From: an uncultured virus (IMG/VR IMGVR_UViG_3300025470_000023)
Taxonomy: Duplodnaviria; Heunggongvirae; Uroviricota; Caudoviricetes
Strand: one strand, 5' to 3'
Length of the DNA: 64,000 nt
IMG/VR virus record: IMGVR_UViG_3300025470_000023
Part shown: in pieces, positions 8,115-62,910 of the stretch
How positions within the stretch are numbered: the stretch's first letter is position 1
Layout: every line of letters begins with the position of its first letter
The notes under the pieces: model-generated
Told to the model about the DNA's origin: nothing
The model's database searches: none
Seen by the model: the letters and a program-made list of their open reading frames with translations, nothing else
Program-made: the position numbers and the translations under genes

Positions 8115-8154
8115 TGCAATCTCCTAAAACAACTCGGTAACGCCGAGCGTCGTG

Positions 8155-8174: not shown

Positions 8175-8209
8175 CGGAAGCGAGTGGGATTTCTCCAACT
8201 CAGGCTACC

Positions 8210-8238
8210 ATTATACACACATATACATGGCTTGTCAA
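8210..8238 (-). promoter_or_regulatory. consensus sigma70 promoter
   Basis: TTGACA-17-TATAAT; same GTAGGGCTTGACAAGC context as the 6628 promoter. Confidence 0.9.
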
Positions 8239-20953: not shown

Positions 20954-21769
20954 ATGAAGAACGTAATTTACAAAATCCGAAACGTAGTCAACGACCACTA
21001 CTACGTAGGCAGCACAGTCGACTCTCGCAAACGCTTTTGGGCGCATAGAAAAGCTCTTCGCTTAGGGAACCATGACTGCGTGCATTTGCAACGTGCATGG
21101 AACAAATATGGCGAGGACTGTTTTAAATTCGAAGTGCTAGAGACGCATAGCTCTAAAGACGAGTTGTACCCAGCGGAACAAAAATGGCTGGACGAGCATT
21201 TCGGTAAAGACTACTGCTACAACGTAGCTGCCCACGCCGACTCCCCTATGAGGGATGCGAGCCCAGAGATCCGGGCTAAATTAGCTGAAAAAACCAAAGC
21301 ATGGCTTAAACGAGAGGGACACCCTCGGCAAGGCGTAGCACATACAGAAGAATCCCGCGCTCAGATGTCAGAGACGCGTAAAGGTAAAGCAGCAGGCGCA
21401 GACCACTACCGCTACGGTAAAACAGTTTCAGAGGAGACACGTAAAAAGATTGGCGATGCTCAACGTGGTAAACCTAAAGCGCCCGGGAGAACCATATCCG
21501 CTGAAGGCCGTGCCAAAATCCGTGCCGCAGCTGAGGCGGGGCACTACAGTCACTGGGAAGGTCGCACTCATTCGGAGGAGTCAAAGGAGAAGATGGGCCG
21601 CGCCGTCATAGCGACGGATCCTGCTGGTGTAGAGCATAGGTTTGCTACAATCACTCAGCTTCGAAAGGAGCTTGGGCTGACTCCACCCACGGTGGATAGG
21701 GCTTTAAAATCTGGCAACGCCCTGACAAAAGGCAAAGCCGAGGGGTGGAGTTTTAGATATACTGACTGA
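20954..21769 (+). mobile_element. free-standing GIY-YIG homing endonuclease with NUMOD3 repeats
   Basis: VIYKIRN...YYVGST...RFWAH...LQRAWNKYG; repeated HTEESRAQMS / SEETRKKIG / HSEESKEKM. Confidence 0.9.
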
Positions 21770-24320: not shown

Positions 24321-24959
24321 ATGAGAGCAATAAATCCAGAAACGACCAGATATGCGTATGTGCACTGTCGTCCTGATGGGTCTATTTTTTATGTAGGCAA
24401 GGGTGCTATGCGCCGAGCAAAAAATCTTAGGGAACGGAATGAGTACCATAAGCGGGTCGTAGCTAAGCACGGTAAGGAAAACATTTTTATCGGAACCATA
24501 GAATGCTCATCTGATGCGATATCACTAGAGTTGGAACGGGGCATCATCAAGTGTCTCAAACGTTCTGGAGTTAAACTAACTAATTGCACGGATGGTGGCG
24601 AGAAGGGCACAGTTTTAACACCGGAGACATTAGAGAAGTTGTCCATAGCGGCAAAAAAACGCGGCGTATCAGCAGCCTGCCGAACCGCTACCGTAACCGC
24701 GAGAAAAGGAAAACCGCTACCAGAAGCGCACAGATTGAAAGTATCGCGGAGTATGCAAGGTAAAGTATTCTCTGAAGAGCATCGACGTAATATCAGCGCT
24801 TCCGCTAAGAAAAGAGGCATGTCTCCACAAATAACAGCCGCAGCCCACGCTAAGACCAGAGGCAGGGTGCAATCTGAAGAGGAGCGCGCAATGCGGAGCG
24901 CAGCGCTGTTAGAATCATGGCGCAGGCGTAAAGCGGAGGCAACAAATAATGGCGACTAG
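24321..24959 (+). mobile_element. GIY-YIG homing endonuclease with NUMOD3-like repeats
   Basis: YAYVHCRPDGSIFYVGKG...LELERGII...LTNCTDGGE; SEEHRRNIS repeats. Confidence 0.85.
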
Positions 24960-28156: not shown

Positions 28157-28675
28157 TTGAAGATGCGGAACGATCATATCATTGTTGAAAATGCCCAGCA
28201 ATTATGGGACTACGATCCAGAGACAGGCAGAATTTACTGGAAAGAGCCGAAGTGTAATGGTGCTATAAAGGCGGGACAGGAAGCGGGGTCTACAACGACA
28301 TCGGGTTATAGAGAGGTTAGAGTAGGCAGAAAGCCCGTTTTGGTCCACAGGGTAATCTGGTTTTTGTATTATGGTGAACTTCCTAGATGTCAGCTAGACC
28401 ACATAAACAGAGATCGGGCGGACAACAGAGTTTGCAATTTACGGATAGCGTATAACAACGCTAGCGATAACAACCAAAATAGGGCGGTAGGAAAAAACAA
28501 CACCTCTGGGTACAAAGGTGTTATATGGAACCCTAAGAACAGTAGATGGATAGTCCGACTTAAACATAAAGGGCGAAGCATGTATTTTGGGTCTTACCTC
28601 GATATCAAAGATGCCATAGCTGCTAGGAAAAGGGCAGAAGCAGAGCATTTTACTTTTATACATTCTCAGGAATAG
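28157..28675 (+). mobile_element. HNH-AP2 homing endonuclease
   Basis: YDPETG, HRVIW, LDHINRDRADNRVCNLR, NTSGYKGV...YFGSY AP2 domain. Confidence 0.9.
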
Positions 28676-46525: not shown

Positions 46526-49500
46526 ATGGCTGAAGAATACGGATTGGCTAACCTTCTCGCTGGTCAATCAATACCCGCTGATGACTCTGGCTTAGGGCAA
46601 ATATATGGCGGGGGAGACAGCTACACTGCTCAACCTCAAGCGCCTTCTTCAGCTACCGCGATTCCTCCGGGGTATAGGCCCGTACCATTACCTAATGGTG
46701 GGTTTGTCTTTGCCTATAAGGACCATACCGACGAGCAAGCTATTGCAGCTTACCAAGCGGCGCAGGGGGCGCAGCATCCCCAGCATAAGCCGATCCCTCA
46801 TGGGCACGCGGCTGCACGCGAGCCGGTAGCGCCTGAATTCAAGCAAGCGCAGCGTGAGCCGCGCTACGAAGCGTTTGATCCTATCACTGAAGTGCTTAAC
46901 GCTGAGAACCAGCTTGATCGCGCTTCGATCGAGGAAATCCCCCGCGCCTATAAATATGCGCTGACTCCAGCGCAGGCGGCTCAGGTTAAACGCCAAGAGG
47001 AAAAAGCAGCACTCGCCGCGCAACCTCGTGATCCTGAAAAGCAGGGGTTCATTCCCGCTGTAGGAGCTGGCTTTGCTCGTGAGATCGGGAGTGTAGGACG
47101 CTTCGCTTCAGAAAGTGCTCAACCGTTTGCTCCGGGTGTAGCGCAGACCATCAAGGAAGTCACACAACCTGCGGAAGCTAAGGCCAAGGAACTTCATCAG
47201 CCTATCTCTGACATTGAGATTGCCGAAGCAAAACAGAAAGGATTCGTACCTTACGCTGGCGCTCAGCTTACGCGTGCCGGAGATATTCTAGGTGGGTTTG
47301 CTGGTGAGTGGGGTGTTCCCGGTATTGTCAGTAGGGCAGGTGCTCCGGGTAGGGCTATCAGTGGTGGGCTGACGTTTGCACAGCTTTATGGCGATCTGTC
47401 TCGTCGTGCCGAAGAATCCGGTGTGGAACTCTCATTGCCAGAGAAGTACGCAGGGGCCGCAATCAGCACCGCTATTTTTCAGTTGGCCCCCAACTTCGTA
47501 ACCAAGGGCTTGCCCCTCAATGTGCTGGCTCCGTCTGCTAAAGCCATTGTCGATATCTATGAAAAGGAAGGTGCAGAAGCTGCGCAGAAAGCTGTAGGGT
47601 CTTTGGCTGGCAATATCGTCAAGAGCTATGGCTCAGGTGTTGTAGGCGGAACTGCCGCTATGGCCGGTACGGAAGCGGTAACTCGTCACATGCTGGGTCA
47701 ACCGCAGATTACACCTGAAGAAACTCTAGAGATGGCTAAGGACGCTGCGATTATCAGTGCTCCTATGAGTATTCTCCACGGGCGCGCGGCAACGGCGGAA
47801 GCACAGAAAGGCTATAGAGAAGGCGCGGCGCGAGCATATAGAGAAGATCAGAGACTGCAGCAACAGGTTGACGCTATCAACCAAGAGAACGCGGAGCGTA
47901 CATGGCCCGAAATGCGTACGGAAGGGCAAAGAGCTGACCAAACGCAGGGTACTGAGCATATTGAGACTCCCGGCGTAGCCGAGCCTGCACCGCCGACTGG
48001 CGAGATCAACCTGCTTCAACCTGTTGACTGGCACCCTACGGGTGATGGGTTCCCTAATACGGTCGAGGGGTTGAAGGGTTTCATCGCGCACCATAAAGAC
48101 AAGCTACAGAATGAGGTGGCTCGCCGTAACCCAGAGGTTGCTGCACCCATTGAAGGTGCGCTTAAAGAAGCGAACAAAAGACTTACGGCGCTTCGCCGTA
48201 CCGCACAGAAAGGTGAGGCTCCGACTCCTCCGGGTATTCCTCCGTCAGCAGAGTTGTTGCCTTGGCCGGGCGAAGCGCCGCCGGAAGCCGTTACACCCGA
48301 AGCTCCAGTCGTTACACCCGAAGCTCCGCCTCCGGTTGAGGCTGTTACACCCGAAGCTCCCGCCGCACCTTGGCCTGTAGAAGCTCTCGGGCTGAAACCG
48401 AATGCCGCGCTGACTAAGCGCCTCGCCAAGCTGGATATGAATAACCCAGAGCACATCGAAGCTATTTCCGATGAGCTAAACAAGACACGCGTGCAGATCG
48501 AGCCTGAGAAGCTGGCTGCACTGTCAAATCATTTTGATGCTATTATAAAGCCTAGTAAAACAACAGAGCAGAAGGCTTATGGCGCGCAAGGCGAACAGAA
48601 CATCATTCCAAAAAGGCCACCAACTGTGGACCTCGGAACGCAAAGAAAAACTACAGAACTCTTTAGCCCAGAAGCGCAAAGAGGGATGGAGCTCCTTACC
48701 CAAAGGATACAAGATGTCGCCCGAAGTTATACAGAAGAGGGGCGAAACCCGGCGCAAGAATTGCTTAGGCAAACGATACCTACACAAAAGTTGCAACAAG
48801 ACATATTGGGTCATTTGGACACCCTCGGGGAAACGGTACGAGCATCGGGTGATTATGGAGCAGTTGCTAGGGAGATCATTACTGAAATCGGAGCACGTTC
48901 ACCACAAGGACGGGGACGGCTTGAACAACTCACCCGAAAACTTGGAGCTTCTGAGCAGCAGCGCCCACGCGAAAGAGCACCATCACTTACCTCTAGGGAA
49001 ATGGGCCAAGAACCACGAGGTGTGCTTGAAATGCCACAGCAAGGAGCGAAAGCACCTAGCGAAAGGCTTATGCACGAGGTGTTACCAACAAAACAAGCAG
49101 GAGAAATAGATGCCCTCAACAAGCAAATCTCAAGCACGCCTGATGGCGGCAGCGGCGCACAACCCGTCTTTCGCGAAGAAGGTGGGGATCAAGCAGTCAG
49201 TGGCCAAGGAGTGGAACCAAGCGGACAAGGGGAGCAAGCTGCTGAAGTCGAAGCCCCGAAAGAAGTAGAGGCCATCCAGCAAGAAGCGCGTTCGCTCCAA
49301 CCGGGAGATATTATCGCCAACGATATGGGTGATAGAGTTGAGATCGTGAAATTGGGTGGTACGCTTAAAGACGGCACACAGTTGTATGAATGGCGTGACC
49401 CTGATGACCCCAATTTTGGTCCTACGAAGATGGCTACTTCTTCTCCTGAAGGTAGTGAAGGCGTGCTCTCTATACATACACTGCTGTCCCCATACCAATA

Positions 49501-52500
49501 TCTTACGCCTGAAGGCGAACGTAAGAGCGCTCCCGGCGCTACTATAACTAGAGCACAAGAAGCACCTAAAACGGAAGAAGAGCTCACAGCGGTAGAACCG
49601 CAAAACCCTCGCGAAGCGTGGGAAGCCATGCGTAGTGAAGGCGATCCTGACCATAAGGCCCTACCGCGCGAAGCGCAGATTGCATGGAAAAGAGCCTTTG
49701 ATGACGGCGCTGCAGACAAGGCTTTCTTCGATCAGCTAAAGACCGCGATCACTCCAGAAGCAGATAGGCAGGCTGGCGAGACAGAAGAAGCCGTTGCCCC
49801 TTCTAAAAAAGACTACGATGGTGATGAGTTCCTCTATAGCCGCGGTGAGAAACCAAAAGAAGCAACTAGCCGGGAGATGATCCATGAGACGATCAAGAAC
49901 ATCACTGGTGATAAGCCTACCGCTTGGAGCGTAAAAATCCATGACACGGTAGAAGATGCACAGAATCATTTGAATGAGGCTGTTTATGAAAAGCTGGATA
50001 GGGATTACCCGGCTATTATGCGGGCTATTGACCATTTTGAACGCACGGGAGAGCTAGACCCTAATGATCCTTACTTGCCTCGTGGTGGTGTTGTATCTCG
50101 TGAGCGGCATATAGATATCCTGCGCGGAATAGCCAGTGATATACGCAAGAATGCTGAAGCTAAAGGGCTTACGGGGTTAAAACTTGAGCCCGATGCTAGA
50201 GGTTTCGTGCTGGGGAACAAAGCGCATTTCGTTGTAGAAAACATCCCTAAAGGGCGGGAACTTGGGGTGATGCTGCATGAGGTGGGTGATCACCTCGGTA
50301 TGGAAAAACTGTTGGGTACAGAACAGCGCTCTAGACTCGCAGCTAAAGTTGCCGATTGGGCCAAGACGCATAAAGGTCTTGAAGGTGACGTTGCTCGCGC
50401 TGCTATTGAACGTTCTCGTGGTGATGAATCAGAACACATCGCTTACTTTGTAGAAGAAGCGGTTAACCACGGCGTTGACCCCACTGCATGGAAGCCGAAC
50501 TCTGGGTTTAGTGTCTGGTTCCGTCAGCTCTTGGCTGCATTCAAAGCTGGCTTACGCAAACTCGGTATCAAGAATGTTGATCGTCTGTCTGCTCAAGATA
50601 TCGTAGATATGGCCTATGGTGCGGCGCACCTTGAGTTGCGCAGTCGTTGGCATGGTGCCCCTAAAGACTTCAGAAAATTCCAGCTCAAGTATCGCGGCAC
50701 TGGGGAAGGCGGCTTAGAGCCGGGTGATAGAAACGCTGAACACTTTACCGACATGATTGGTTGGGGGCATTACATGTCCGGTCGGCGTGGTATCGCTGAA
50801 GAATATCGTGATCGCCTGTCTGCGCAAGCTAAGCGTGGTACTGGAGCATTAGACCTTAAAGACTATAAAAAAGATTTTGATGTAGGCACTGACAAAGCGA
50901 CCGCTTTTAGCGATGCCTATGAGATTTTACATGAAACTCGGGGGGATTTTATTAAGGCTAGGCGGCGCATAGGTTTGCACGCGCAAGAATTCACTGATGC
51001 CCTAAATGGAGTGTGGCCCACACCTAAAAATCTTCCAGATCTTATAAAACAGGCAGAGAAAGAACGTGACCTCGCATTACAGTTTATAGACACGTTTGAA
51101 AAGCACGGAGCTGAGTATATTCCGGGCGAGCAACCAGAACCCACACTCTATAAACTCGGCATCAACGCCTTCGACCATGAGCTTATCGACTGGGAAAAAC
51201 CCCTGTCTGAGCAAAGCCCTGACGTACAGCGCGTAGCTAATCGCGTAAAGAAGAAGCTGGAAAAAGAAGGAGTGCTTGACGACGTTGTCGATACGCTTAA
51301 TTCAAATTGGGAAGACATCTCAGGTAGAGACTTCTATCGGTATGTGATGCGTAAAGCACGGGATACCGATGCTATTCCAGAGTTGTATGACTTGAGCGCC
51401 GTTAACGCAGAGAAGGCGGCATCTGAGTATTTGGACTCTCAAGGGATCAAAGGCATCAAGTACCCGACCCAAGGAGGGCAGGGTCCGGGCCACAACTACG
51501 TCATCTTTAGCGACAAGAATGTTCATATCGCGGGTAAGAATGTGCCGCGCACTGAAGCTGAAGGTATTCGCTACTCGCGTGCTCCTGAAGGGGAAGAAGA
51601 ACGTCCCCCGCTAACCAAGATTGATCGCAGCTCTACCCTAAAGACGATCGCTAAGACTTTGAAGCGCGCGGCGTTGGCGGTTAGTGATCCGAGTGCTATG
51701 TCTGAGGAGTATGCCAAGTTCCGGCGGCGGGTGATCGCTGAGTCTGCAGGTCTGACCAAAGCTCTCGAGAATGAGCCTACCTACGATCCTGATACCGGCA
51801 TTCGCGTGGACTATCTGCGGAACCAATACGACAGTGCCTATCAGTTATCTCTGGAAGGTCTGTTCAATGGTGTGCCTGTGCTTGAGCCTAAGACGGGTGT
51901 TGTGCGTATTCAGCCGACGACTCGTACCAATCTCGATCGCATCATGGCAGATGCAGCTAAGCTACCGCTCAAAGTCTCCTATGACGGGCAGAAAAAGGAA
52001 CCGCTCGAAGTCATGGCGGATATCTTCCGTATCAAGATGGGTGAACAGGAACTCAAAGAATACGAAGAAGCCAAGGTTAAGCTAAGAGCAATCGAACAGT
52101 TGCCAGAAGCTACGCGCAATCAGACCGACACCAAGGCGGAAATGGATAGGCTTAAAGAGCTTATCACTAATCAAGAAAGAGGCATTGGTCGTGAGCGTAA
52201 TGTCACCCGCGAAGACATTCGCTGGGCTAATGACGAGATTCAACACGTACCGGGAGTGCAGGATATTCTGGATCGTTGGGGTGAGACTAACCAAGAGCTG
52301 CTACGTTTTGCGCGTGACACCAACTGGATCACTCCTGAGAAGTATGAAGAATGGTCGGAGCGGCCCTCATACATCCCCATGTATAAGCCGATGGAAGATA
52401 TCCTAGCAGAGCGCGACGAGACACCTGCATTCCCCGGTGGTGGTCCTAAGACTGTCGGTAAGCTGTTCGGTAAGACAGGTGCGGCTAGTGCATTCCCTGT

Positions 52501-54463: not shown

Positions 54464-54500
54464 AAAGAACCCCGCGGGAGTGAGGCGCGGGGTATAAAAA
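54462..54500. terminator. probable terminator between convergent late and replication units
   Basis: ACCCCGCG...CGCGGGGT hairpin flanked by A tracts. Confidence 0.55.
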
Positions 54501-54556
54501 GGGGGGATTGAACAATGATTCGACCGCGCGTAGTTTATGAGGCGGTCTATAGGCTG

Positions 54557-57481
54557 TCAATGTTCCTGAAGTGAGCTCTCATTCAGGCCGATCAGGGTAG
54601 CGTCGAAGCAATGTGCGAGGACAGACCCGCCGGGGAGCTTGGTGCCTTTACCTAGCTGACACCGCTCATCGCGCAGGATCACCTGCTCGTCTCTCAGGCC
54701 GTTGATGAAGGGGCCGTAGGGCAAGCGCCGCAGGCTGCACCAATTCCGCAGGACATTCGACGCGATGTAGAGCATCTTGGTGTCTGGCTCGAACCGCCCG
54801 ACCAACTCACCCGTAGCTAACTGAGGTGGCACCGATGCCGCTAATACGCCGTCCACAGGGTCTAGATTGCCCCCTACGACCACGATGTTCCTGTGGTGCT
54901 CGTTGATGAATTCACCGATGACTTCGTAGGTGTTGTTGCTAGACTCCTGCTCGATGACTTCCTTCGTATCCTTCACCTGCTCCAAGGCCCAATTCCATAC
55001 GCGCTCAATGTCGATATCATGCAGACCCAACTGCTTGGCGATCTCAGCCCCAGTAAAGGCGCAGGACAGAGCCGCTGAATAGAAGCGATGCTCCTGACTG
55101 AACTCAGCCTCTCTATCGAAACGGACCTTGATCTCGTTTCTGCGAAGCAGTACGGATTCCAGATTGGGCACCACGAACTTCATGAACTCCTCACCCGCAA
55201 GGCCGTAGTTGCCGAGGAGCAGGTGGTTGAACAGATAGTCAGATTCTTCCTTGGTCAGTGTCTCATCCTTCTGAATCTCGATCTCAAGAATACGATACCG
55301 TTCCCCGTCTGAGGATGCCTTGAACGACTTGATCGTATCGTAGAGGCTGTTGTTCCCCGAGGTCAGCACCATCGTAGCCCATGAGGCGTTGTTCTTACGC
55401 TCCGCATTAACCTGAGCCTGCATACGGTTACGCCCTCTGTTGAAGGATATGCGGAACACGAAGTCACTGGCCTGCTCTGGCTCGATGTTGGTGATTTCGT
55501 CCACGGTCATGATGATGTGGTTCAGTACACCGATGCGGCTCTCTCGTGAGAGCGGAGTGTCATTTTCGTTGAGCAGGGCTTCCTGCGGGTGCCCCCAGAC
55601 GCTATTCGCCGCCATCTGCGCCGTAGACTTACCTACACCTGATGCTGTGTTGGTCAGGTGCGTGATCATACTGCCGAGCCCTGCGAACTTGTATAGAGCA
55701 GACCCGAAGCTCATAAAGAGAGCCAGTGCTCGCGCCTCGTTCCCCGGCTTGTTGTACGTGTTGATAACTTGCTTCCATGCGTCCAGTCGGCCCTCTGATC
55801 GGTAGATAGGCGCGATCTCCTTGGTCGCTGATGAGGGTGGGCTATAAACGACTGTGCCCTGATTGGTGATTTCTCGTCCGCCGATGACGAACCGTGTGTC
55901 ATTGTCGTGCCATCCGAATTGCATACGCGCTTGCTCCGCTTTGTCTTGTTCCTGTAGAAACCGCACCCAATCGTTGATATATCGACGAATTAGGTCCATA
56001 CGCCGATCAATCTCGGCTACACCTTTACTGGATAGAATCTCCTGACACTTATCCTTCTTGGTGATCTGGCTCAGCGCCGCAGTGAATTCATCCATGCCGT
56101 CTTTCGGTAGGATGTGCGCGATCTGAATCATTTCGTCCCGCTCGGGGTCGTTAATACGTTTCTGCACCCACAGGTCATAGGGATAGATCAGGGTCTCATC
56201 GAGGTCTTCATCCCCCGTTTCCTCACCGTCATCATCCTTGCTTTTCCCTAGCTTGCCTTTGATTGCGACACCGCCGTTCTTGGGGCGAAGCCACGGCTTG
56301 GGGTATTCCAGAGGGATTTCGATATCTACGAACTCCTTGAGGCCCTTGTGCCAGATCTGTTCCTTGAGATTATCCGTAGCAGTAGCCGGAGTGATGATGA
56401 TCCCCAAAGCGATCGGACTGTTGATTTTGCCTCTCAGGGGGCAACCCAAGCATATAGCGGCGCGCCCTTGATGCGCCTGAAAGGTACTGCACTTATGCGG
56501 AAAGGCTTCTAGCGTACCCTCGGCCTTGGCGATCGTATCTTCCGGGTCATAGGCGGGGTGCTGATTAGAGATCTTGTGGATGGCAGTCTCCCAATCCACG
56601 CAACGCCTAGCGATAGATAGTACACTGCGCCAGACTGGTTCTGGAGTACCCTCATGATCACGAGCGGCCATGGCGATCTGTTCGCACCCCATGCTACGGG
56701 AGATCTTCTGCTTGACCTGCTTCCCGTCTTTGTCGGTTACGGTCTCGATCACATCTTCGTAGGTCAGGCTTTTCTTTACGATCTTCGAGAACTTGGCCTC
56801 GATATCCTTCTCTACGACGGCCTTCATGATGGCCTCATCGCGCCCGGACATTTCCCGTGCTTCGACGAGTCCTATCAGCAATTTGAATTGGGGTAGATCG
56901 ACAGGCTCCGCGAGCTTAATGGCGCGGACTTCTTTGGGGTTCGAGCGATCCTTGTTGTTGAATGTGCCGGGCACACGCAGGATACGCGCACCATCAGCCG
57001 TGACCACGGGATCAGCATCGAAGCTGTAGTTTTCAGACGTACGCTTCAGAGCATCAGCTACTGGCTTCCAATCATTATAGGTCAGCGGTGTTTCGAGCGC
57101 CCAATACAGATGGAGCCCACGCCCTGAATTGACGATCGTGGGTAAGGGGAGGCGAGTCTCCTCTAGAAATGTTTGCAGGGCAAGCATCCCTGCCTTCTGA
57201 TTCTCATACGGCTTGCCGGGGCCGCAGTCGATATCCATGTAAAAAGATTTATAACCCTCGGCATTCTTCGCGCTACGCTTACCGGCAGGGTCCTTGAATG
57301 TGGCGCAACCAAAGTAGACTTCGCGCCCAGCTTCCGACAGGGCGTTGATCGTGCCTTCTGCTTCTTCTACGGAAGCATGAAAACTTTGCTTGGGCGGTTG
57401 TGAGCTATCGCTCATCAGCCCCATGATGCAGACATGTCCGGTCGGGGCTAAAACCAGACGGAAAAACTCACTCCTTGACAT
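54557..57481 (-). CDS. primase-helicase (prim-pol N-terminus + DUF927-like ATPase)
   Basis: MDIDC, SGRGLHLYW, RILRVPGT, FGWH, SGVGKST, TVDE; start ATG 57481. Confidence 0.85.
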   Translation of the reverse strand: MSRSEFFRLVLAPTGHVCIMGLMSDSSQPPKQSFHASVEEAEGTINALSEAGREVYFGCATFKDPAGKRSAKNAEGYKSFYMDIDCGPGKPYENQKAGMLALQTFLEETRLPLPTIVNSGRGLHLYWALETPLTYNDWKPVADALKRTSENYSFDADPVVTADGARILRVPGTFNNKDRSNPKEVRAIKLAEPVDLPQFKLLIGLVEAREMSGRDEAIMKAVVEKDIEAKFSKIVKKSLTYEDVIETVTDKDGKQVKQKISRSMGCEQIAMAARDHEGTPEPVWRSVLSIARRCVDWETAIHKISNQHPAYDPEDTIAKAEGTLEAFPHKCSTFQAHQGRAAICLGCPLRGKINSPIALGIIITPATATDNLKEQIWHKGLKEFVDIEIPLEYPKPWLRPKNGGVAIKGKLGKSKDDDGEETGDEDLDETLIYPYDLWVQKRINDPERDEMIQIAHILPKDGMDEFTAALSQITKKDKCQEILSSKGVAEIDRRMDLIRRYINDWVRFLQEQDKAEQARMQFGWHDNDTRFVIGGREITNQGTVVYSPPSSATKEIAPIYRSEGRLDAWKQVINTYNKPGNEARALALFMSFGSALYKFAGLGSMITHLTNTASGVGKSTAQMAANSVWGHPQEALLNENDTPLSRESRIGVLNHIIMTVDEITNIEPEQASDFVFRISFNRGRNRMQAQVNAERKNNASWATMVLTSGNNSLYDTIKSFKASSDGERYRILEIEIQKDETLTKEESDYLFNHLLLGNYGLAGEEFMKFVVPNLESVLLRRNEIKVRFDREAEFSQEHRFYSAALSCAFTGAEIAKQLGLHDIDIERVWNWALEQVKDTKEVIEQESSNNTYEVIGEFINEHHRNIVVVGGNLDPVDGVLAASVPPQLATGELVGRFEPDTKMLYIASNVLRNWCSLRRLPYGPFINGLRDEQVILRDERCQLGKGTKLPGGSVLAHCFDATLIGLNESSLQEH

Positions 57482-57506
57482 AACGCCGCCTGAACTAAAG
57501 TGGAAG

Positions 57507-57528
57507 AAAAGGGGCGGCGAACCGCCCC
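57507..57528 (-). terminator. rho-independent terminator after the SSB-like gene
   Basis: GGGGCGG-TTCG-CCGCCCC then TTTT. Confidence 0.75.
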
Positions 57529-57540
57529 CACCGACGAAAC

Positions 57541-58497
57541 TTAGTCGTCGTCTCCCCACTCAGCCAGAATGGAGGTCAGGTCTTGTTCACCCGCTTTCGG
57601 TGCAGGTGCAGAGGACTTCTTTTCTTTCACGACAGGTTCAGACACAACCTCAGCTTCTTCTACAGGAGCCGGAGTCGGAGGAGCGATAGCCGCCGGAGCG
57701 GGGCGCGGAGGCATGGTAGGTGCCGCAGTCTTACGTGCGTCCATTGCTGCCGGAGTATAGCTGATGGCGTTTAGTGCATCTTCACCCTGCCCCTTTTCGA
57801 TGATGATCGCGTACTGTTCATCGGACAGGTAGTCCACAGGACGGAAGAGCAGTTTAGGCGTAGCCGATGAAGTATCGAAACGCATCTCAGTGATGACGTT
57901 ACGAATACCCGCACCATGACCGTAGAGGAACTTGAGGTACGCACGGAACGGCATCATGCCATTGACGGGATCACCGAACACGGACTGCGAAGGCAGGACG
58001 AGCTGATACACATCAGAGTTTTCAAGGTTAGCCGTAAGAGCTTCAGGGTCCTGACTATTGTTAGCCAATACAACTGCGAGACGCTGACTGAAGCGGCAGG
58101 CACGGGAGGTGCCTTGACCTGATCCCTTGGCATTCATTGGGCAGTTAGCACAGGAAGCAGACTGTGGGCTGGCCGCGCGAGCATCGGGCTTTGTACCATC
58201 GTTGGAGAAACAGGTCGGCTGTGTGACTTCACCTTCCTTGTAGACACCATCGTAGTAGGTCCGGCTCACCTTCTCAGCGGCGTTGACGATCACGATATCC
58301 ATAGAGCGATCGTCGCTCTTGGTGACTTCCTGCCCATCGACAATCATACGGAAGACGTTGCCACGGATGGAGATACGCTTGTTGCCTGACCCTGACGAGC
58401 CGATCATGCGCTTGGTCAGGTCATCCGTATTGTTACGGACATGGTTAGGTACAACAGCTTTTTGATTACGGAAAATGGTCAAATCAGCCATGTTCAA
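57541..58497 (-). CDS. ssDNA-binding protein (probable)
   Basis: CFSNDG...CANCP...ACRFSQRLAV, acidic tail EWGDDD, replication cluster. Confidence 0.65.
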   Translation of the reverse strand: MNMADLTIFRNQKAVVPNHVRNNTDDLTKRMIGSSGSGNKRISIRGNVFRMIVDGQEVTKSDDRSMDIVIVNAAEKVSRTYYDGVYKEGEVTQPTCFSNDGTKPDARAASPQSASCANCPMNAKGSGQGTSRACRFSQRLAVVLANNSQDPEALTANLENSDVYQLVLPSQSVFGDPVNGMMPFRAYLKFLYGHGAGIRNVITEMRFDTSSATPKLLFRPVDYLSDEQYAIIIEKGQGEDALNAISYTPAAMDARKTAAPTMPPRPAPAAIAPPTPAPVEEAEVVSEPVVKEKKSSAPAPKAGEQDLTSILAEWGDDD

Positions 58498-58742
58498 ATC
58501 CTCGTTAATGTATTTGATTGTTCTGCAAGAGCGAGCACATCCGCTCGCTTGAAGCGCACTTGTTGGTTAAAGCCCACTCGGTAGGCTGTCAAAATCCCCC
58601 GCTTTCGCCAGTTGTGGAGGGTTGCTCGGGACACCCCAAGCTCCGCCATAACCTCAGCGGTGGTCATCACATTTTCCTCCGTAGGGGGAGGATCATAAGG
58701 CTCGAAAAATTCATCGTCAATCTCATCAAAATCATCCATCAC
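58494..58742 (-). CDS. excisionase/MerR-like HTH protein
   Basis: MTTAEVMAELGVSRATLHNWRKRG...VRFKRADV. Confidence 0.8.
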   Translation of the reverse strand: MMDDFDEIDDEFFEPYDPPPTEENVMTTAEVMAELGVSRATLHNWRKRGILTAYRVGFNQQVRFKRADVLALAEQSNTLTRI

Positions 58743-59131
58743 TTTTTCCTCACGCTAATGACGTACTCGCTGTCACTCGACAGCCCCATAGGCACCATCT
58801 CCGGGTTCTCCTCCAACAAGTTCTTCATATTGGTCTGATGGATGCGTTGTTCCAGAAGGTGGTACGCATCGTGCTCCTTGATAAACTGGTACATGGACTC
58901 CCAATCGGTGGTCTTGTACCTGACGCTCAGCTTGCGCGTTGCTGTACCGTGGGCTGTCTTGACACTGTCTGCGCCCATCTCCTTGCAGATTTCGAGGAGC
59001 ATATCGCTCACCTTGGTCTGCTTCTCCTTGAGCACGGCGTCTGCCGCTTCAAAGTCCTGCGACAGTTTCTGTCGCGCTGAGCGCAACTTGATGTATGCGC
59101 TGATCAGCTTGTCTGCTGTTACTTCACTCAT
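58739..59131 (-). CDS. conserved replication-region protein
   Basis: YIKLR...SVKTAHGT...DWESMYQFI...LLEQRI; AGGAG RBS. Confidence 0.7.
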   Translation of the reverse strand: MSEVTADKLISAYIKLRSARQKLSQDFEAADAVLKEKQTKVSDMLLEICKEMGADSVKTAHGTATRKLSVRYKTTDWESMYQFIKEHDAYHLLEQRIHQTNMKNLLEENPEMVPMGLSSDSEYVISVRKK

Positions 59132-59173
59132 CGTCCACTCCTAAATCAACCGCTACACTAACGGCGTATGGTC

Positions 59174-59201
59174 ATTTTACACACTTATATTACCCTGTCA
59201 A
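59174..59201 (-). promoter_or_regulatory. sigma70-like promoter
   Basis: TTGACA-16-TAAAAT. Confidence 0.5.
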
Positions 59202-61685
59202 CTCCTGTTGATACATATCTAACAAAGTTTCTTGCGCCAGAGTCCTTTCCTCCAAAGCTTTGTAGAGCTGGCGCTCCACGGCTGAGCTAACCAACTTCAC
59301 CACAAGGCACGGGTTTCTCTGCCCCGCTCTATGCACTCGGGCGTTCGCTTGTAGCCAGATTTCTGCGGAGGTCACAGGACCGAACCAGATGATCGTATTG
59401 GCCGCTGTCAAAGTGACACCATGCGCGGCTGACTGAGGCTGAATGATTAGAACGTGCGGGTTGGGCGTAGTCTGGAAGTCATTGAAAATCTCTGCCCTGC
59501 GTTTGGCTGACACCCCGCCGTGTATGGTGGCCGTAGTGATGCCCTGCTTCTCAAGGTACGTCTGTACCATGTCGATTGAATGTCTGAAGTTGCAGAAGAT
59601 CAGAACCTTGTGGCTACTCTCCTGTACGACCTCAAGCATCTCCTCTAACTTATTCTTACAGTCGAACTCGACAACCTCGCCGCTATCCGAATACACCGAC
59701 CCACAGTTGTGGACGATGACGGGACCTTCTTTCCCCGCTACAACAAACCTAGACCGGGGTCCGCAGTTAAGTAGGTCGTAAGTTGCTTCCCTTTGTTTGG
59801 GGACGCTTTCAGTGCCAAATCTATAGGCCAACCCGCCTTCAGGCGTCTTCTCAAGGTGACAGACTTGAGTCCGTATTCCTCTGCTGCTTGTGCTACAGTC
59901 ATTTTTCCATTCGGTGTGTCTATAAGAATGTTCACCCTCGTGTTGCGCCCCTGATCCTTGGGTGTAGCCCACCGGCAATTCTCCGGTGAATACGGGCCGT
60001 TGTTGTCTATCCTGTCTAGCGTAAGCCCGTCCTTGTGCATAGGCCCCATATCCGACCAGAACATCTCGAATGAAGACCGCCAGCGTTCGCACACCACAAT
60101 TCCACGTTCTCCGTAATTTTTGTAGTCCTTGTCTAAAGGATCGTGACAACGCGCTACCATGCTGTGATAGTTTGAATACACTGGCTTTTTGCTCATTTTG
60201 TGTTTCTCGTTGCCGTGGTGGCATCCGCAACTTCTTGGGTGCTTCCTGTGCTTTGCTCTTAGATACTGACTCCTGCGAATTACGCGCCGCCCACAATCGC
60301 ACAGGCAAAGCCACGTCGCGCATTGCACCGAAATTCCGCTCGTCGTTCCAGCTCTCTCTATAACTGTCAGGTACCCGAACTTCTGTCCTATTAAATCTTT
60401 TGCTGGATTTGCCATAAATAATATCCTCCGCTGTCTGCCATCCTGCGGTGGTGAGAACCCTATGGTCCGAAGTCATACGTACACCGTAGCACTCGCGCAC
60501 TTCTTTAAGCCCACGACATGCCAGCCCATCATGTGCTACCCATTCTTCACCATCCCACACTCTATGCGCTGTGGTTACTTCTTGAATCGGTACCCACCCA
60601 ACGTCTGTAAGTACAGGTGTATTATACGCAATACAAGATATTTGTAACAGTTTGTTCATACCCACTGCCGCATTGAACGCTGTGATATCTGCACTGGCAA
60701 CTTGGATCAGCATCTCTTTCTTGAGGAGCTTGTAGTATTTCTCCTGTTGCGCTGTGAGGGGCGTGTCACGCTCAGAGTAAAGAAGCTCTGGTAGATCGAG
60801 GCACTCATCCTTGGTGAACCTGATGGCAGGCTGAAGCACCTCATGGACTACCTGCTGTGCCTCGGGTTTGGGGATGTATTTGAACGCGCTGATCTTCAGC
60901 ATGACTCGATCGCGGAACAACCCTACGAACTGCGGAACACTCGTGGGATTCATCATCTTGGCGAGGCCGTAGGCATCGAGTGGGCTCTGTGCCGCAGGTG
61001 TGCCCGTCAGCATCCACACCCATGTGTCCGGTCCGATCAGGCTATTGATCATCTTCCAACGCTTGGTCGTTGCTGTCTTGATGTAGTTGGCCTCATCCAG
61101 AACAATAAGGTCGAACCCACCCAGAGCCAGCTCGCTACGCACGGACTCCACACCATCGTAGTTGATAATGACGAACTCGGCATTGGAGTCGATCACCTTG
61201 GCTCGCTTGGCTTTCGATCCGTGGGCAATGTCTACCCTACGCTTCATGACCGTCCTGAATAGATCTGCTCTCCATGCTGAGTCCATGATAGACAGAGGGC
61301 AAATGACGAGTACCCTGCGAATGAACCCGAGCTTCATGAGATAGTCAGCCGCCCAGATAACGGACACGGTTTTGCCTAGCCCCTGCTCGTTCCAGCAAAA
61401 TGCTCTACGGTTGAGGGTCAGAAAGGCGGCGGTTTCCTTCTGGTGATCGAAGGGCGTGTATCTCCCCGGCCAATCGTATTGACGCACGATAGGAGCCGGT
61501 GCTTTCTTGAAGCCCAGATTGCGAAGGATCTTTGTGTTAGGCAGGTTCCATTTGACTGCCACCTCGTAGCCGTTGCCATTGGGTAGCGAAACTTCCTTCA
61601 CTACCGCAGACTTCGGAATCACTTCGGTGATCTTCTCTGGATTGCGGGTGCGCACGATGAGTGCGCGGTCCTCTACGATTTCCAT
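59190..61685 (-). CDS. SNF2-family helicase containing an intein
   Basis: QGLGKT, LDEA, LTGTP, HGVTLTAA, QANARVHRAGQ; 310-aa insert between LLQIS and CGSVY. Confidence 0.9.
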   Translation of the reverse strand: MEIVEDRALIVRTRNPEKITEVIPKSAVVKEVSLPNGNGYEVAVKWNLPNTKILRNLGFKKAPAPIVRQYDWPGRYTPFDHQKETAAFLTLNRRAFCWNEQGLGKTVSVIWAADYLMKLGFIRRVLVICPLSIMDSAWRADLFRTVMKRRVDIAHGSKAKRAKVIDSNAEFVIINYDGVESVRSELALGGFDLIVLDEANYIKTATTKRWKMINSLIGPDTWVWMLTGTPAAQSPLDAYGLAKMMNPTSVPQFVGLFRDRVMLKISAFKYIPKPEAQQVVHEVLQPAIRFTKDECLDLPELLYSERDTPLTAQQEKYYKLLKKEMLIQVASADITAFNAAVGMNKLLQISCIAYNTPVLTDVGWVPIQEVTTAHRVWDGEEWVAHDGLACRGLKEVRECYGVRMTSDHRVLTTAGWQTAEDIIYGKSSKRFNRTEVRVPDSYRESWNDERNFGAMRDVALPVRLWAARNSQESVSKSKAQEAPKKLRMPPRQRETQNEQKASVFKLSQHGSALSRSFRQGLQKLRRTWNCGVRTLAVFIRDVLVGYGAYAQGRAYARQDRQQRPVFTGELPVGYTQGSGAQHEGEHSYRHTEWKNDCSTSSRGIRTQVCHLEKTPEGGLAYRFGTESVPKQREATYDLLNCGPRSRFVVAGKEGPVIVHNCGSVYSDSGEVVEFDCKNKLEEMLEVVQESSHKVLIFCNFRHSIDMVQTYLEKQGITTATIHGGVSAKRRAEIFNDFQTTPNPHVLIIQPQSAAHGVTLTAANTIIWFGPVTSAEIWLQANARVHRAGQRNPCLVVKLVSSAVERQLYKALEERTLAQETLLDMYQQELTG
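59706..60635 (-). mobile_element. intein (310 aa)
   Basis: Block A CIAYNTPVLT, block B MTSDHRVLT, block F TYDL, terminal VHN with +1 Cys. Confidence 0.92.
59738..60415 (-). mobile_element. HNH-type homing endonuclease nested in the +1 frame inside the intein
   Basis: DLIGQKFGYLTV, WLCLCDCG, SCGC, YGERGIVVCERW, TLDRIDNNGPYSPENCRWAT; GGAGG RBS 9 nt upstream. Confidence 0.9.
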
Positions 61686-61737
61686 GTGTACCTCTGATAG
61701 CAACCACGTTAAGGCCGTGGCAGGAGCCTATCCAACA

Positions 61738-61962
61738 TTAAAGCAGGTCGTAGTCTTCGCCGTCAAAGACCTCGAACAGAGTTGGTTTGTTAGGGTTTTT
61801 GTTGAAGTACCATGCCTTCAACTTGGTCAGGTTGAACTTGCGCTCACGCGCGGCAATCTTGAAGGTAAACTGCACCATCGCGTCTACATGACGTTCGATC
61901 AGCTCCTCGGGAAAGCCGGACTCTCGCGCAATATCCTTAACTGCTCTAGTCGCTACTCTCAT
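61738..61962 (-). CDS. hypothetical protein
   Basis: 74 aa, ATGA coupling with the upstream gene. Confidence 0.55.
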   Translation of the reverse strand: MRVATRAVKDIARESGFPEELIERHVDAMVQFTFKIAARERKFNLTKLKAWYFNKNPNKPTLFEVFDGEDYDLL

Positions 61963-62240
61963 TTTTTCTCTGGCTTATCGTACGTACCCTTCATAGAGCC
62001 ATCACTATTCCGTTTGAAACTACGATTGGCACTGGGAGATTCTAGGAAGTACCCCGTCTTGTTGGAACCGCCCTTGGATAGCGCCTTCCTATGGGCAATG
62101 TCCTTGCCCTTACGATCTACACCATCCTTGTCTAGCTTACGCCGAGCGCGTTGGCGCTCTAGCTTAGCTTCAAGTACACCGCCTTTTTTCTTCTGGCGAG
62201 CTTTTTCGGTTACCCATTCCTGCTTATAGTTCCGTGGCAT
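61959..62240 (-). CDS. small HNH-family protein
   Basis: RNYKQEW...GKDIAHRKALSKGGSN...SANRS. Confidence 0.7.
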   Translation of the reverse strand: MPRNYKQEWVTEKARQKKKGGVLEAKLERQRARRKLDKDGVDRKGKDIAHRKALSKGGSNKTGYFLESPSANRSFKRNSDGSMKGTYDKPEKK

Positions 62241-62241
62241 T

Positions 62242-62910
62242 TTAGTCTCCTTGATGAGGGCAACTCGTTACGTTGCACCACTTTCGGCAAAGACCGTTCG
62301 GGCGAGGGTTCCACACATCAGTCTGATAGGCATTTTCCAGAGCGGATAACAGCCCATGCAATTCAGAGAAGATGCTCAACCCATACTCTGCCGAGAAGTC
62401 TTGCTTCCTGTGATCTTTCTTTACTACAAAGAGTAGCATGGTTTTGATCTTTTCTATCTCTGGGTATTTGAGAAACAGGGCAGCGGCCATGAGAGCAAGC
62501 TGGCGAGTGTCGGCGTATCGGCTTTCTCCTGTCTTGTAATCCAGTACCCATGCCCGATTGCCATCGACAATAACCAAATCTGCAATACCTCGAAACCAAA
62601 CTTCAGGGTCGTAGTAATCGCACGTTTCCAACCGCCCATCGACTTTCTTCACTCCCAATTTCATTTCACAGAACTTCTCGCCCGGATAGGCAACGAGCTT
62701 ATCGAGGTAATCTTGTATAAAGCTGAACCTCTGTGGAATGGGAGTGCCGTCTCGAATGTATTCCTCTGCCGCCTTATGCAGTTGCTCGCCGTAGATAGCC
62801 TTCTCTCCTTGCGTGAAGGGAACTTCCTTGGTGACCTTCTCCGCCTGATACTTGCGAGGGCAAGTCTCAAACGTCTTCAGTGCGCTGTACGACCATGCGG
62901 GTTGTTTCAT
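62242..62910 (-). CDS. PD-(D/E)XK exonuclease (Cas4/RecB-like)
   Basis: WSYS...CP, GIADL, DYKTG, QLALMA, LCRKWC...CPH. Confidence 0.85.
   Translation of the reverse strand: MKQPAWSYSALKTFETCPRKYQAEKVTKEVPFTQGEKAIYGEQLHKAAEEYIRDGTPIPQRFSFIQDYLDKLVAYPGEKFCEMKLGVKKVDGRLETCDYYDPEVWFRGIADLVIVDGNRAWVLDYKTGESRYADTRQLALMAAALFLKYPEIEKIKTMLLFVVKKDHRKQDFSAEYGLSIFSELHGLLSALENAYQTDVWNPRPNGLCRKWCNVTSCPHQGD

What the first reader, a model, noticed from the sequence alone, without database searches (positions are those of the whole stretch)
48579..60415. Shared rule: both nested endonucleases use the +1 geometry that lets wobble changes remove host-frame stops
Seen: offsets from the host ORF starts are 2053 nt (from 46526) and 1288 nt (from 61703), both 1 mod 3. 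In this geometry each host codon is the HEG wobble base plus the first two bases of the next HEG codon. A host stop then needs T before AA/AG/GA and can always be removed by a synonymous HEG change. Two dissimilar HNH subfamilies use this arrangement in one genome. Inference: a general overprinting strategy for homing endonucleases that gene callers miss because they forbid full overlaps.
Basis: inference. Interest (0 to 1): 0.85.

Follow-up and report, generated by a model that had tools for sequence, protein, structure and literature searches.

The report
Two endonuclease genes nested out-of-frame
This freshwater phage carries two selfish endonuclease genes written inside larger genes in a shifted reading frame, one inside a self-splicing intein and one in a giant protein's linker; the layout is real and under selection, but it was described in 2025.

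Summary
ORF 48579-49109 (+, HNH_3) lies inside the 2645-aa ORF 46526-54463. ORF 60415-59738 (-, HNH-like) lies inside the SNF2 helicase ORF 61703-59190. Both start 1 mod 3 after the host start.

The host frame has 0 stops across each nested gene. The three free-standing endonuclease genes of the window have 15-21 stops in that frame, and synonymous resampling expects 12-15 (0 of 1000 resamples reach 0).

The helicase case is a 310-aa intein whose middle is only an open spacer. It belongs to a family seen in 14 other viral contigs and in the APSE-1, Caulobacter and Shewanella phage polymerases. The giant-protein case has no intein or intron: it is a net 546-nt in-frame insert, absent from close relatives.

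Both kinds were published in 2025 (Gosselin, Arsenault, Gogarten), and this scan has met the intein kind before on other DNA.

The "+1 rule" is not established: five of six lineages tested here use that frame (one-sided p = 0.11), and Jerseyvirus polymerase inteins use the other frame.

Verdict: new members of a known kind, with a frame bias worth a systematic test.

The parts
46526..54463 (+). Host gene A: 2645-aa large polyvalent-type protein (LPD38 domain at aa 2297-2451)
   Evidence: ORF list; Pfam LPD38 3.2e-15; full-length homologues of 2094-2576 aa
48579..49109 (+). Nested HEG 1: 176-aa HNH_3 endonuclease gene, codons starting at host codon position 2
   Evidence: Pfam HNH_3 2.7e-11; 11 PHROG families annotated HNH, best 5e-15; 0 host-frame stops against 12.3 expected
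48542..49141 (+). Insert carrying HEG 1 (boundaries approximate): net 546 nt = 182 codons relative to the empty allele, in a polar linker
   Evidence: Protein alignment with five homologues that lack it; DNA comparison with the empty allele L075, anchors 612 nt apart against 66 nt; no Rfam family at E up to 1
48571..48575 (+). Weak Shine-Dalgarno-like GAAGG, 3 nt before the ATG of HEG 1
   Evidence: Read from the sequence; function inferred
59190..61703 (-). Host gene B: SNF2-family helicase precursor, 837 aa from the first possible start
   Evidence: Pfam SNF2-rel_dom 6e-22 at aa 105-339 and Helicase_C 7.8e-18 at aa 685-794; relatives without the intein span about 1.4-1.5 kb
59706..60635 (-). 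Intein, 310 aa: starts CIAYNTPVLT, block B TSDH, ends VIVHN followed by Cys
   Evidence: Boundaries; profile match to the Mtu RecA intein, E 3.6e-4; model residues 1-76 and 281-310 fold confidently, 77-279 have pLDDT under 50; the listed top Foldseek matches are inteins or intein-like Hint domains, best 4.7e-4
59738..60415 (-). Nested HEG 2: 225-aa HNH-like protein (N-terminal Cys cluster, core, C-terminal helix-turn-helix); its last ~20 codons overlap intein block F
   Evidence: phrog_374 2.8e-60; 0 host-frame stops against 15.1 expected; the HEG frame is better conserved than the host frame; model pLDDT 80
60424..60429 (-). Shine-Dalgarno GGAGGA, 8 nt before the ATG of HEG 2
   Evidence: Sequence; purine-rich SD-like stretches sit before the start codon in most of the 12 aligned family members (my reading)
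20954..21769 (+). Free-standing control: GIY-YIG + NUMOD3 HEG
   Evidence: Pfam; 21 stops in the wobble+2 frame
24321..24959 (+). Free-standing control: HEG-like ORF (phrog_314)
   Evidence: PHROG 7.7e-15; 17 stops
28157..28675 (+). Free-standing control: HNH_3 HEG
   Evidence: Pfam HNH_3 6.6e-11; 15 stops

Best explanation
Two selfish homing-endonuclease-type genes sit wholly inside essential-looking phage genes without breaking them. In each case the reading frame of the host gene is kept free of stop codons across the nested gene.

Case 1, the SNF2 helicase. The host frame encodes an intein. About 115 N-terminal and 30 C-terminal residues form the Hint splicing fold. The roughly 165 residues between them are an unconserved, unstructured spacer that exists only as the stop-free alternative reading of the endonuclease gene. 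The intein, spacer included, is presumably spliced out of the helicase. The endonuclease is made separately from its own GGAGGA-ATG start inside the mRNA.

Case 2, the 2645-aa polyvalent protein. There is no intein and no intron. A 546-nt cassette, barely larger than the 531-nt HNH gene, lies in a polar linker. The host protein simply keeps 182 extra residues. The HNH is again translated from its own ATG.

In both cases the endonuclease is inferred to cut alleles that lack the insert, so that repair copies the insert in (homing).

Host-frame openness is achieved by never using a T-ending codon before a codon that starts with AA, AG or GA. This costs the endonuclease no amino-acid change.

Shown: both ORFs, the open frames, their departure from chance, the presence/absence polymorphism, the Hint fold and the spacer's lack of confident structure.
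Inferred: splicing, separate translation, nuclease activity and homing.
For: Departure from chance:
- 0 stops against 12-15 expected; 0 of 1000 synonymous resamples reach 0.
- No wobble T before AA/AG/GA in 0 of 60 and 0 of 64 junctions, against 25-27% in the three free-standing HEGs.

Intein:
- Cys1, TSDH and HN+Cys motifs are present.
- Profile match to the solved Mtu RecA intein, E 3.6e-4.
- In the model, residues 1-76 and 281-310 have pLDDT 78-88 and residues 77-279 are under 50.
- The listed top Foldseek matches are inteins or intein-like Hint domains, led by mini-inteins with probability 1.00.

Selection on the arrangement:
- 15 of 33 IMG/VR loci holding HEG 2 homologues (47-100% identity) are nested, all with 0 host-frame stops. 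The 10 host ORFs I scanned are all SNF2 helicases. The other 18 loci are free-standing or fragmentary, and their ORFs have 3-70 stops.
- The HEG frame is better conserved than the host frame in the overlap, for example 58% against 33% and 52% against 30%.
- All 12 aligned family members have a start codon, and most are preceded by an SD-like stretch.

Insertion polymorphism:
- The closest phage-database helicases (Rollin, RHph_TM3_14A, Effie, Xp15) lack the intein.
- Five of six close homologues of the giant protein (P0006, P0008-P0011) lack the insert; P0007 has it.
- The net insert is 546 nt.
- A 98%-identical variant (L074) has 0 differences over the 729 nt of the insert region. The preceding 1.5 kb has about 4% differences.
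- No Rfam intron match.
Against: - No expression, splicing or cleavage data exist. No RNA run was listed for this DNA.
- HEG 2 has no Pfam HNH match. In the weak profile alignment to I-HmuI (E 0.025), the general-base His position reads Arg.
- Its best structural match, PacI, is only Z 6.2, and Foldseek gave nothing at E up to 0.001. It may therefore bind DNA without cutting.
- HEG 1 has only a weak ribosome-binding site with a short 3-nt spacer.
- Identity of the insert between two alleles is also seen in other 1-kb stretches of the same comparison, so recent homing is only suggested.
- How a cassette with 12-15 expected stops became stop-free before it could be tolerated in a coding gene is unexplained.
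Confidence: 0.8

Rival explanations
1. The +1 geometry is a real preference. Nested HEGs end up with their codons starting at host codon position 2 because only in that frame can every host-frame stop be removed by a synonymous NNT-to-NNC change.
For: - Five of the six lineages tested here are at offset 1:
  - the HNH-like gene in SNF2 and PolA inteins;
  - the DUF559 (VSR-like) gene in helicase inteins of L038, MR14, a Vibrio phage, CP-T1 and phi673;
  - the window's HNH_3;
  - the Ralstonia phage GP4 DarB-like protein;
  - the actinophage methylase HNH in Applejack and SG4.
- In 39 free-standing HEG ORFs, 28 hold at least one stop in the other frame that needs an amino-acid change.
Against: - 5 of 6 gives a one-sided p of only 0.11.
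- The lineages are few and were found through homologues of this window's genes, so the sample is biased.
- Jerseyvirus inteins use offset 2 with a homologous intein and HEG.
- The favoured frame starts with more stops to remove: 10.3 against 6.0 per 100 codons.
Confidence: 0.4
2. There is no frame rule. The shared offset in this genome is coincidence plus inheritance, and either sense frame can host a nested HEG.
For: - Two cases sharing one of two frames has probability 1/2.
- The helicase case inherited its frame from a family 47-100% identical across 15 loci.
- Jerseyvirus shows that the other frame works, with 0 stops and no Met followed by I/M/T/N/K.
Against: The 5:1 tally across three endonuclease families (HNH_3/HNH, phrog_374 HNH-like, DUF559) and both intein and intein-less settings.
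Confidence: 0.5
3. HEG 2 is no longer a nuclease. It would be a DNA-binding remnant or co-opted factor kept by the intein, with the intein moving by other means or not at all.
For: - No Pfam HNH hit.
- Arg at the position of the catalytic His in the alignment to I-HmuI.
- Only modest fold matches.
Against: - Strong conservation of the HEG frame over the host frame.
- Homologous units sit in SNF2 helicase and in two different PolA sites.
- Intein-free alleles exist in relatives.
- 1140 phage records hold homologues, many annotated as HNH endonuclease.
Confidence: 0.25
4. The open host frames are chance or an assembly artefact (paired frameshift errors around an in-frame endonuclease domain).
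For: None beyond the window being a metagenomic assembly.
Against: - 0 of 1000 resamples reach 0 stops.
- The same arrangement appears in independent assemblies and in isolate genomes (APSE-1, GB2A, SFCi1, GP4).
- The stretch is held by runs listed under 19 different studies.
- Each nested ORF has its own start and stop.
Confidence: 0.01
5. The insert in the giant-protein gene is a group I intron carrying an HNH gene and is removed from the mRNA.
For: HNH genes are common passengers of phage group I introns (established knowledge).
Against: - No Rfam family matches 47500-50500 at E up to 1.
- The insert (546 nt net) leaves only about 15 nt beyond the 531-nt ORF.
- A spliced intron would not need a stop-free host frame, yet 0 stops are seen against 12.3 expected.
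Confidence: 0.03

Closest known systems
APSE-1 (Hamiltonella phage) DNA polymerase P45 intein with nested P46
   Same: The intein is homologous (34% identity over the whole 306-310 aa, E 5e-51) and so is the nested protein (41% identity, E 5e-52). The offset is the same, 1 mod 3, and the host frame has 0 stops. RefSeq annotates P46 as an HNH endonuclease inside P45.
   Different: The host gene is a family A polymerase, not an SNF2 helicase. P46 is annotated from an internal Met, which drops the N-terminal Cys cluster. The original 1999 paper could not be read here.
Actinobacteriophage inteins with a homing endonuclease in a separate reading frame (Gosselin et al., bioRxiv 10.1101/2025.01.02.630785; passages read)
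   Same: The splicing domain and extein are in one frame, and a complete endonuclease ORF lies in another frame of the endonuclease region. The in-frame middle has no recognisable structure. The authors propose that a free-standing HEG invaded an intein.
   Different: Their sense-strand case is an endonuclease VII-like gene in actinophage proteins. Here it is an HNH-like gene in an SNF2 helicase of a freshwater phage with about 52% G+C. They give no codon-junction analysis. Their label 'frame 3' could not be mapped to my offsets.
ShiLan domain: hidden out-of-frame HNH in a mycobacteriophage DNA methylase (Arsenault, Gosselin, Gogarten 2025, PMC11855218; abstract and sections 6, 18, 19 read)
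   Same: An intein-less, intron-less insert that gives no stop in the host frame, holds an out-of-frame HNH and has a patchy distribution among close relatives. This matches the window's insert at 48542-49141. In Applejack and SG4 methylases the HNH is also at offset 1 with 0 host-frame stops.
   Different: - Host gene: a giant LPD38 polyvalent protein rather than a methylase.
- G+C: about 52% rather than about 61%, so far more stops had to be avoided.
- HNH protein: unrelated (no phage-database match for P0001).
- Start: here an ATG with a weak SD is present, whereas the paper invokes leaderless GTG initiation.
- Frame label: the paper calls the frame 'third'; my arithmetic on two apparent family members gives host codon position 2.
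Fractured genes / split inteins with a free-standing HEG between the halves (Dassa et al. 2009; known to me only through citations in the preprint, and recall)
   Same: A free-standing-type endonuclease gene occupies the endonuclease position of an intein.
   Different: There the host frame is broken and the intein works in trans. Here the host frame reads through, so the intein stays in one piece.
Genes split by a free-standing HEG, for example the DNA polymerase I of Escherichia phage phi G17
   Same: A homologue of HEG 2 sits inside a replication gene.
   Different: The polymerase is annotated as two CDS either side of the HEG, so the host gene is in pieces rather than read through.

Membership tests
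Intein (Hint splicing domain) | N-terminal Cys/Ser, block B TxxH, C-terminal His-Asn followed by Cys/Ser/Thr | tested here: met
   C357 (CIAYNTPVLT), TSDH and VIVHN|C in the host protein. C1, T55, H58, H309 and N310 are invariant in 9 aligned sequences.
Intein (Hint splicing domain) | Hint fold | tested here: met
   Model ends have pLDDT 78-88. Foldseek top matches are mini-inteins (Ssp DnaB, DnaX, DnaE, Mtu RecA), best E 4.7e-4, probability 1.00. Profile against PDB: PI-MtuI 3.6e-4. Pfam gave no Hint hit on the whole protein at E 0.01.
Intein (Hint splicing domain) | Protein splicing activity | not testable with these tools
   Inferred from intact motifs and from the host being a conserved replication helicase.
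HNH endonuclease (Pfam HNH_3), ORF 48579-49109 | Profile match above the curated cut-off, with the His/Asn/His residues of the motif | tested here: met
   HNH_3 43.3 bits against cut-off 24.8. The motif HVHHKDGDGLNNSPENL...H is read from the translation.
HNH endonuclease, ORF 60415-59738 | Profile match to a curated HNH model | tested here: not met
   No Pfam HNH family at E up to 10 and no NCBIfam hit. Only PHROG families annotated as HNH match (phrog_374 2.8e-60).
HNH endonuclease, ORF 60415-59738 | Beta-beta-alpha-metal fold with a catalytic His | tested here: inconclusive
   Profile against PDB: I-HmuI E 0.025, with Arg where I-HmuI has its His. VIA-align best match is PacI, Z 6.2, rmsd 2.7, 78 residues aligned. 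Foldseek found no match at E up to 0.001.
Homing endonuclease gene (mobile) | Presence/absence polymorphism at one site among close relatives | tested here: met
   HEG 1: P0007/L074 have the insert; P0006, P0008-P0011 and L075 lack it. Intein with HEG 2: absent from the closest phage-database helicases.
Homing endonuclease gene (mobile) | Site-specific cleavage of the empty allele | not testable with these tools
   No assay was possible.
Out-of-frame-endonuclease intein (Gosselin et al. 2025) | Complete endonuclease ORF in another frame of the intein's endonuclease region, host frame open, in-frame middle unstructured | tested here: met
ShiLan-type hidden-HNH insertion (Arsenault et al. 2025) | No intein or intron signature; in-frame insert with no host-frame stop; out-of-frame HNH; patchy distribution | tested here: met
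   No Hint family and no Rfam hit. Net insert 546 nt, divisible by 3. 0 host-frame stops. Patchy distribution. Not homologous to the ShiLan HNH family as sampled: P0001 has no phage-database match.
Group I intron with HEG | Match to a group I intron covariance model | tested here: not met
   0 Rfam matches at E up to 1 in 47500-50500.

The most novel reading that the evidence does not exclude
Nested homing-endonuclease genes preferentially sit with their codons starting at host codon position 2. The standard code makes NNT and NNC synonymous, so only in that register can an endonuclease gene be made completely stop-free in the host frame at no protein cost. This would turn it into a portable read-through cassette able to colonise inteins and disordered linkers of large phage proteins. 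The 5:1 tally here, across three endonuclease families, would be the first sign of such a code-driven rule.
Probability: 0.35. Interest if true: 0.65.

Novelty: new member of a known kind. Interest (0 to 1): 0.45.

Why it matters
Nested out-of-frame endonuclease genes are usually left out of annotation: 11 of the 13 phage records I fetched omit them. Inteins are then labelled as 'mini' or 'splicing domains only', and inserts in large proteins go unexplained.

This window shows both known forms side by side in one phage. It also extends the intein-less form from actinophage methylases to a giant polyvalent protein of a phage with about 52% G+C, where a dozen stops had to be avoided.

The window further gives a simple, quantitative signature (no wobble T before AA/AG/GA) that could be used to find such genes. 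If the frame bias holds up, it would be a neat case of genetic-code structure shaping where selfish genes can live.

Tried and rejected
- **Whole genome.** None is held for this window.
- **Phage-database searches with no match.** Megablast of 57000-63000; tblastn of the giant protein's residues 401-1200; tblastn of P0001.
- **APSE-1 1999 paper.** Not held.
- **Literature search** for 'intein, HNH, alternative reading frame': 0 papers.
- **Sequencing runs.** No RNA holder was listed. Contigs of four runs (X10-X13) laid on 47900-49800 showed no joint skipping the insert. They only reproduced the insert-bearing variant, so they say nothing about mixed populations.
- **Other nested cases among homologues of the free-standing genes.**
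  - 0 of 57 distinct ORFs related to the window's GIY-YIG and HNH_3 genes have an open alternative frame.
  - 0 of 11 bacterial-genome homologues of P0001 do.
- **Four records where a homologue lies next to a polymerase or Cas4 gene** (HCTV-6, BE22, phi G17, MR16). All proved to be free-standing or gene-splitting, not nested.
- **Endonuclease VII query.** Run to reach the actinophage 'frame 3' inteins; none appeared among the 60 of 1719 records shown. That published case remains unchecked.
- **Nested-ORF scan of all loci held.** It gave 59 candidates. I sent 22 of the unexplained ones to PHROGs; only the L038 ORF matched anything.
- **Homology between the two intein-less hosts.** The giant protein and the GP4 DarB-like protein show no similarity at E 1e-3.
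Full report
**What is there**

The window is a phage genome fragment of about 52% G+C. It carries a terminase, structural genes, a DUF927 primase-helicase, a PD-(D/E)XK nuclease and a family A polymerase. Identical or near-identical DNA occurs in several IMG/VR contigs. It also occurs in freshwater metagenome runs listed under 19 studies.

- A 2645-aa ORF at 46526-54463 (+) contains a 176-aa ORF at 48579-49109 (+).
- An 837-aa ORF at 61703-59190 (-) contains a 225-aa ORF at 60415-59738 (-).
- The offsets are 2053 and 1288 nt, both 1 mod 3.

So each host codon is the wobble base of one nested codon plus the first two bases of the next.

**Is it more than chance?**

The host frame has 0 stops across each nested ORF. 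The same relative frame of the three free-standing endonuclease genes in the window has 21, 17 and 15 stops.

- Resampling synonymous codons with the genome's usage expects 12.3 and 15.1 stops. None of 1000 resamples reaches zero for either gene.
- Permuting each gene's own codons expects 3.0 stops (15 of 1000 reach zero) for the first gene and 11.7 (0 of 1000) for the second.
- The first gene therefore avoids T-ending codons in general. The second uses them freely, but never in a dangerous position.
The free-standing ones give 21 of 82, 17 of 62 and 15 of 60.

**Identity of the nested genes**

The ORF at 48579 is an HNH_3 protein (Pfam 2.7e-11) with an intact motif and a C-terminal CxxC...CxxC.

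The ORF at 60415 is less clear:
- It matches phrog_374 (2.8e-60) and other PHROG families annotated as HNH.
- It matches no Pfam HNH model, even at E up to 10.
- A profile of 15 family members hits I-HmuI weakly (E 0.025), with Arg at the position of the catalytic His.
- Its model (pLDDT 80) best matches the HNH enzyme PacI at Z 6.2. Foldseek finds nothing at E up to 0.001.

I therefore call it HNH-like. Its nuclease activity is not shown. The two nested proteins are unrelated to each other.

**The helicase case is an intein**

The SNF2 domains lie at residues 105-339 and 685-794. Between them the host frame reads C357-IAYNTPVLT ... TSDH ... VIVHN666|C, which is an intein of 310 aa.

Evidence for the intein:
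- A profile of nine such inteins matches the Mtu RecA intein (3.6e-4).
- In the AlphaFold model, residues 1-76 and 281-310 are confident. Residues 77-279 have pLDDT under 50.
- The listed top Foldseek matches are inteins or intein-like Hint domains, led by mini-inteins.
- The closest phage-database helicases lack the intein.

The nested gene starts at intein residue 74 and ends 10 residues before the intein's end. Its first ~40 codons overlap a conserved part of the N-terminal splicing region, with V86, R87, P89, D90 and R113 invariant. Its last ~20 codons overlap block F. That tail of the nested protein is unstructured in its model, with residues 216-225 under pLDDT 50.

**The intein unit is an old family**

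- Of 33 IMG/VR loci with homologues of the nested protein, 15 (47-100% identity) are nested with 0 host-frame stops.
- The 10 host ORFs I scanned from these are all SNF2 helicases.
- The 18 more distant loci hold free-standing or fragmentary ORFs with 3-70 stops in that frame.
- In the phage database the best hits lie inside annotated DNA polymerase genes of Caulobacter phages, Shewanella phage SFCi1 and the APSE phages.
- APSE-1, GB2A and SFCi1 have homologous inteins, the same offset and open host frames.
- Across the family the nested frame is consistently better conserved than the host frame over the overlap (88/63, 58/33, 52/30, 43/28 %).
- All 12 aligned members have a start codon, and most are preceded by an SD-like stretch. 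In the window this is GGAGGA with an 8-nt spacer.

So the nested protein is what is under protein-level selection. The host frame is mainly kept open.

**The giant-protein case has no intein**

The host has only an LPD38 domain. Around the nested gene there are no Hint motifs and no Rfam match.

- Of six close homologues, one (P0007, 99% identical) has the insert.
- The other five (48-88% identical) read ...LAALSNHFDA-[IL]KPKE[AV]PSAEQIPETGA-PDGGSGAQP... straight through.
- DNA of an empty allele (L075) and of an insert-bearing variant (L074) shows a net insert of 546 nt against the 531-nt ORF.
- The site lies in a polar, low-hydrophobicity stretch.
- Between the window and L074 the insert region has 0 differences in 729 nt. 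The 1.5 kb before it has about 4% differences. Other 1-kb stretches are also identical, so this only suggests recent transfer.

**Comparison with what is known**

The scan's earlier notes pointed me to two 2025 papers, which I then read in part.

- Gosselin et al. describe inteins with endonucleases in another frame or on the antisense strand. They propose that free-standing endonuclease genes invaded inteins.
- Arsenault et al. describe the ShiLan domain. It is an intein-less, intron-less insert in a mycobacteriophage methylase that gives no host-frame stop and hides an HNH.

Both of the window's cases are therefore new members of described kinds. The APSE-1 record has shown the nested P46 since its deposit.

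**Testing the 'shared rule'**

The code argument is correct. In 39 free-standing endonuclease ORFs:
- The wobble+2 frame has 10.3 stops per 100 codons, all removable by NNT-to-NNC changes.
- The other sense frame has 6.0 stops per 100 codons.
- Of those, 0.63 per 100 (in 28 of 39 ORFs) follow a Met codon and need an amino-acid change.

For frames in nature I could test six lineages.

At offset 1:
- A. The HNH-like gene in SNF2 and PolA inteins, including Streptococcus phage Javan104.
- B. A DUF559/VSR-like gene in inteins at the DExH motif of helicases. I found it in a second intein of locus L038 and in Pseudomonas phage MR14, a Vibrio phage, CP-T1 and Corynebacterium phage phi673.
- C. The window's HNH_3.
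- D. An HNH-like gene inside the DarB-like giant protein of Ralstonia phage GP4. It is present in GP4 and Gamede, while the match to Gerry is split around that region.
- E. The methylase HNH of Applejack and SG4.

At offset 2:
- F. The Jerseyvirus polymerase inteins (EnJE6, Ent1). Their intein and nested protein are homologous to lineage A. They have 0 stops in that host frame and 27-28 in the other.

Five of six gives a one-sided binomial p of 0.11. The sample was reached through this window's own genes, so it is biased.

The ShiLan paper calls its frame 'third'. Applejack is named by PMC12613952 as having such a methylase. In Applejack and SG4, my arithmetic puts the HNH at host codon position 2. 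I therefore did not count the published 'frame 3' labels either way.

No free-standing homologue has an open alternative frame: 0 of 39, 0 of 57 and 0 of 11 ORFs.

**Verdict**

- The mechanism (read-through host frame, separately translated selfish endonuclease, intein splicing in one case and a tolerated linker insert in the other) is well supported by sequence, but has not been tested at the bench.
- The proposed +1 rule is logically sound and leans the right way. It has a clear counter-example and is not established.
- The nested gene is annotated in only 2 of the 13 phage records I fetched (APSE-1 and Applejack).

Noticed in passing
L038:837-1707 (intein), L038:994-1698 (nested ORF); also L039, L181-L184: In a related freshwater contig the SNF2 helicase gene has a second intein at the DExH motif. 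That intein holds a 234-aa DUF559 (VSR-like) ORF out of frame: offset 1, 0 host-frame stops against 16 in the other frame, and 0 of 66 wobble T before AA/AG/GA. Homologous nested ORFs sit in the helicase genes of Pseudomonas phage MR14, Vibrio phages including CP-T1, and Corynebacterium phage phi673. None of them is annotated.
   Followed up: partly
L070:6058-6612 inside CDS from 2817 (Ralstonia phage GP4, MH638294.1): An intein-less HNH-like ORF is nested at offset 1 in the DarB-like giant protein. It is present in GP4 and Gamede, while the match to Gerry is split around that region. This is a second case of a nested endonuclease gene in a giant virion-type protein. The host protein is not homologous to the window's.
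   Followed up: partly
L071:2848-3591, L073:2680-3423 (Salmonella Jerseyvirus DNA polymerase inteins): These inteins are annotated as 'splicing domains' only. They carry an unannotated 247-aa HNH-like ORF in the other sense frame (offset 2). The intein and the ORF are both homologous to the window's, so the frame relation has changed within one family, or homologous genes invaded homologous inteins twice.
   Followed up: partly
L175:7237-7863 in 6659-8218; L176:2501-3127 in 2116-3894: The methylase-nested HNH of mycobacteriophages Applejack and SG4 starts at host codon position 2 by direct arithmetic. The 2025 paper on the ShiLan domain calls its frame 'third' and quotes a GTG start and a TAAC end. 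These two records read ATG and TAGC instead. Either ShiLan differs slightly or the paper's insert boundaries are offset.
   Followed up: partly
window 49265 onward, compared with L074 (5036 onward): A 98%-identical variant of the giant-protein gene diverges completely right after 49264 and rejoins at 51593. This gives a protein 391 aa shorter (P0007, 2254 aa), so a modular swap or deletion lies next to the endonuclease insert.
   Followed up: no
window 15513-16847 (-): A 444-aa antisense ORF lies opposite the 958-aa ORF at 14340-17216. It is unusually long for about 55% G+C. I did not examine it.
   Followed up: no
window 20954-21769, 24321-24959, 28157-28675, 48579-49109, 59738-60415: There are five endonuclease-type selfish genes in 64 kb: two GIY-YIG-like, two HNH_3 and one HNH-like. 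The three free-standing ones sit between structural genes.
   Followed up: partly
L179:1187-4609 (Escherichia phage phi G17): DNA polymerase I is annotated as two CDS separated by a homologue of the window's HNH-like gene. This is the 'gene in pieces' alternative to the read-through solution.
   Followed up: no
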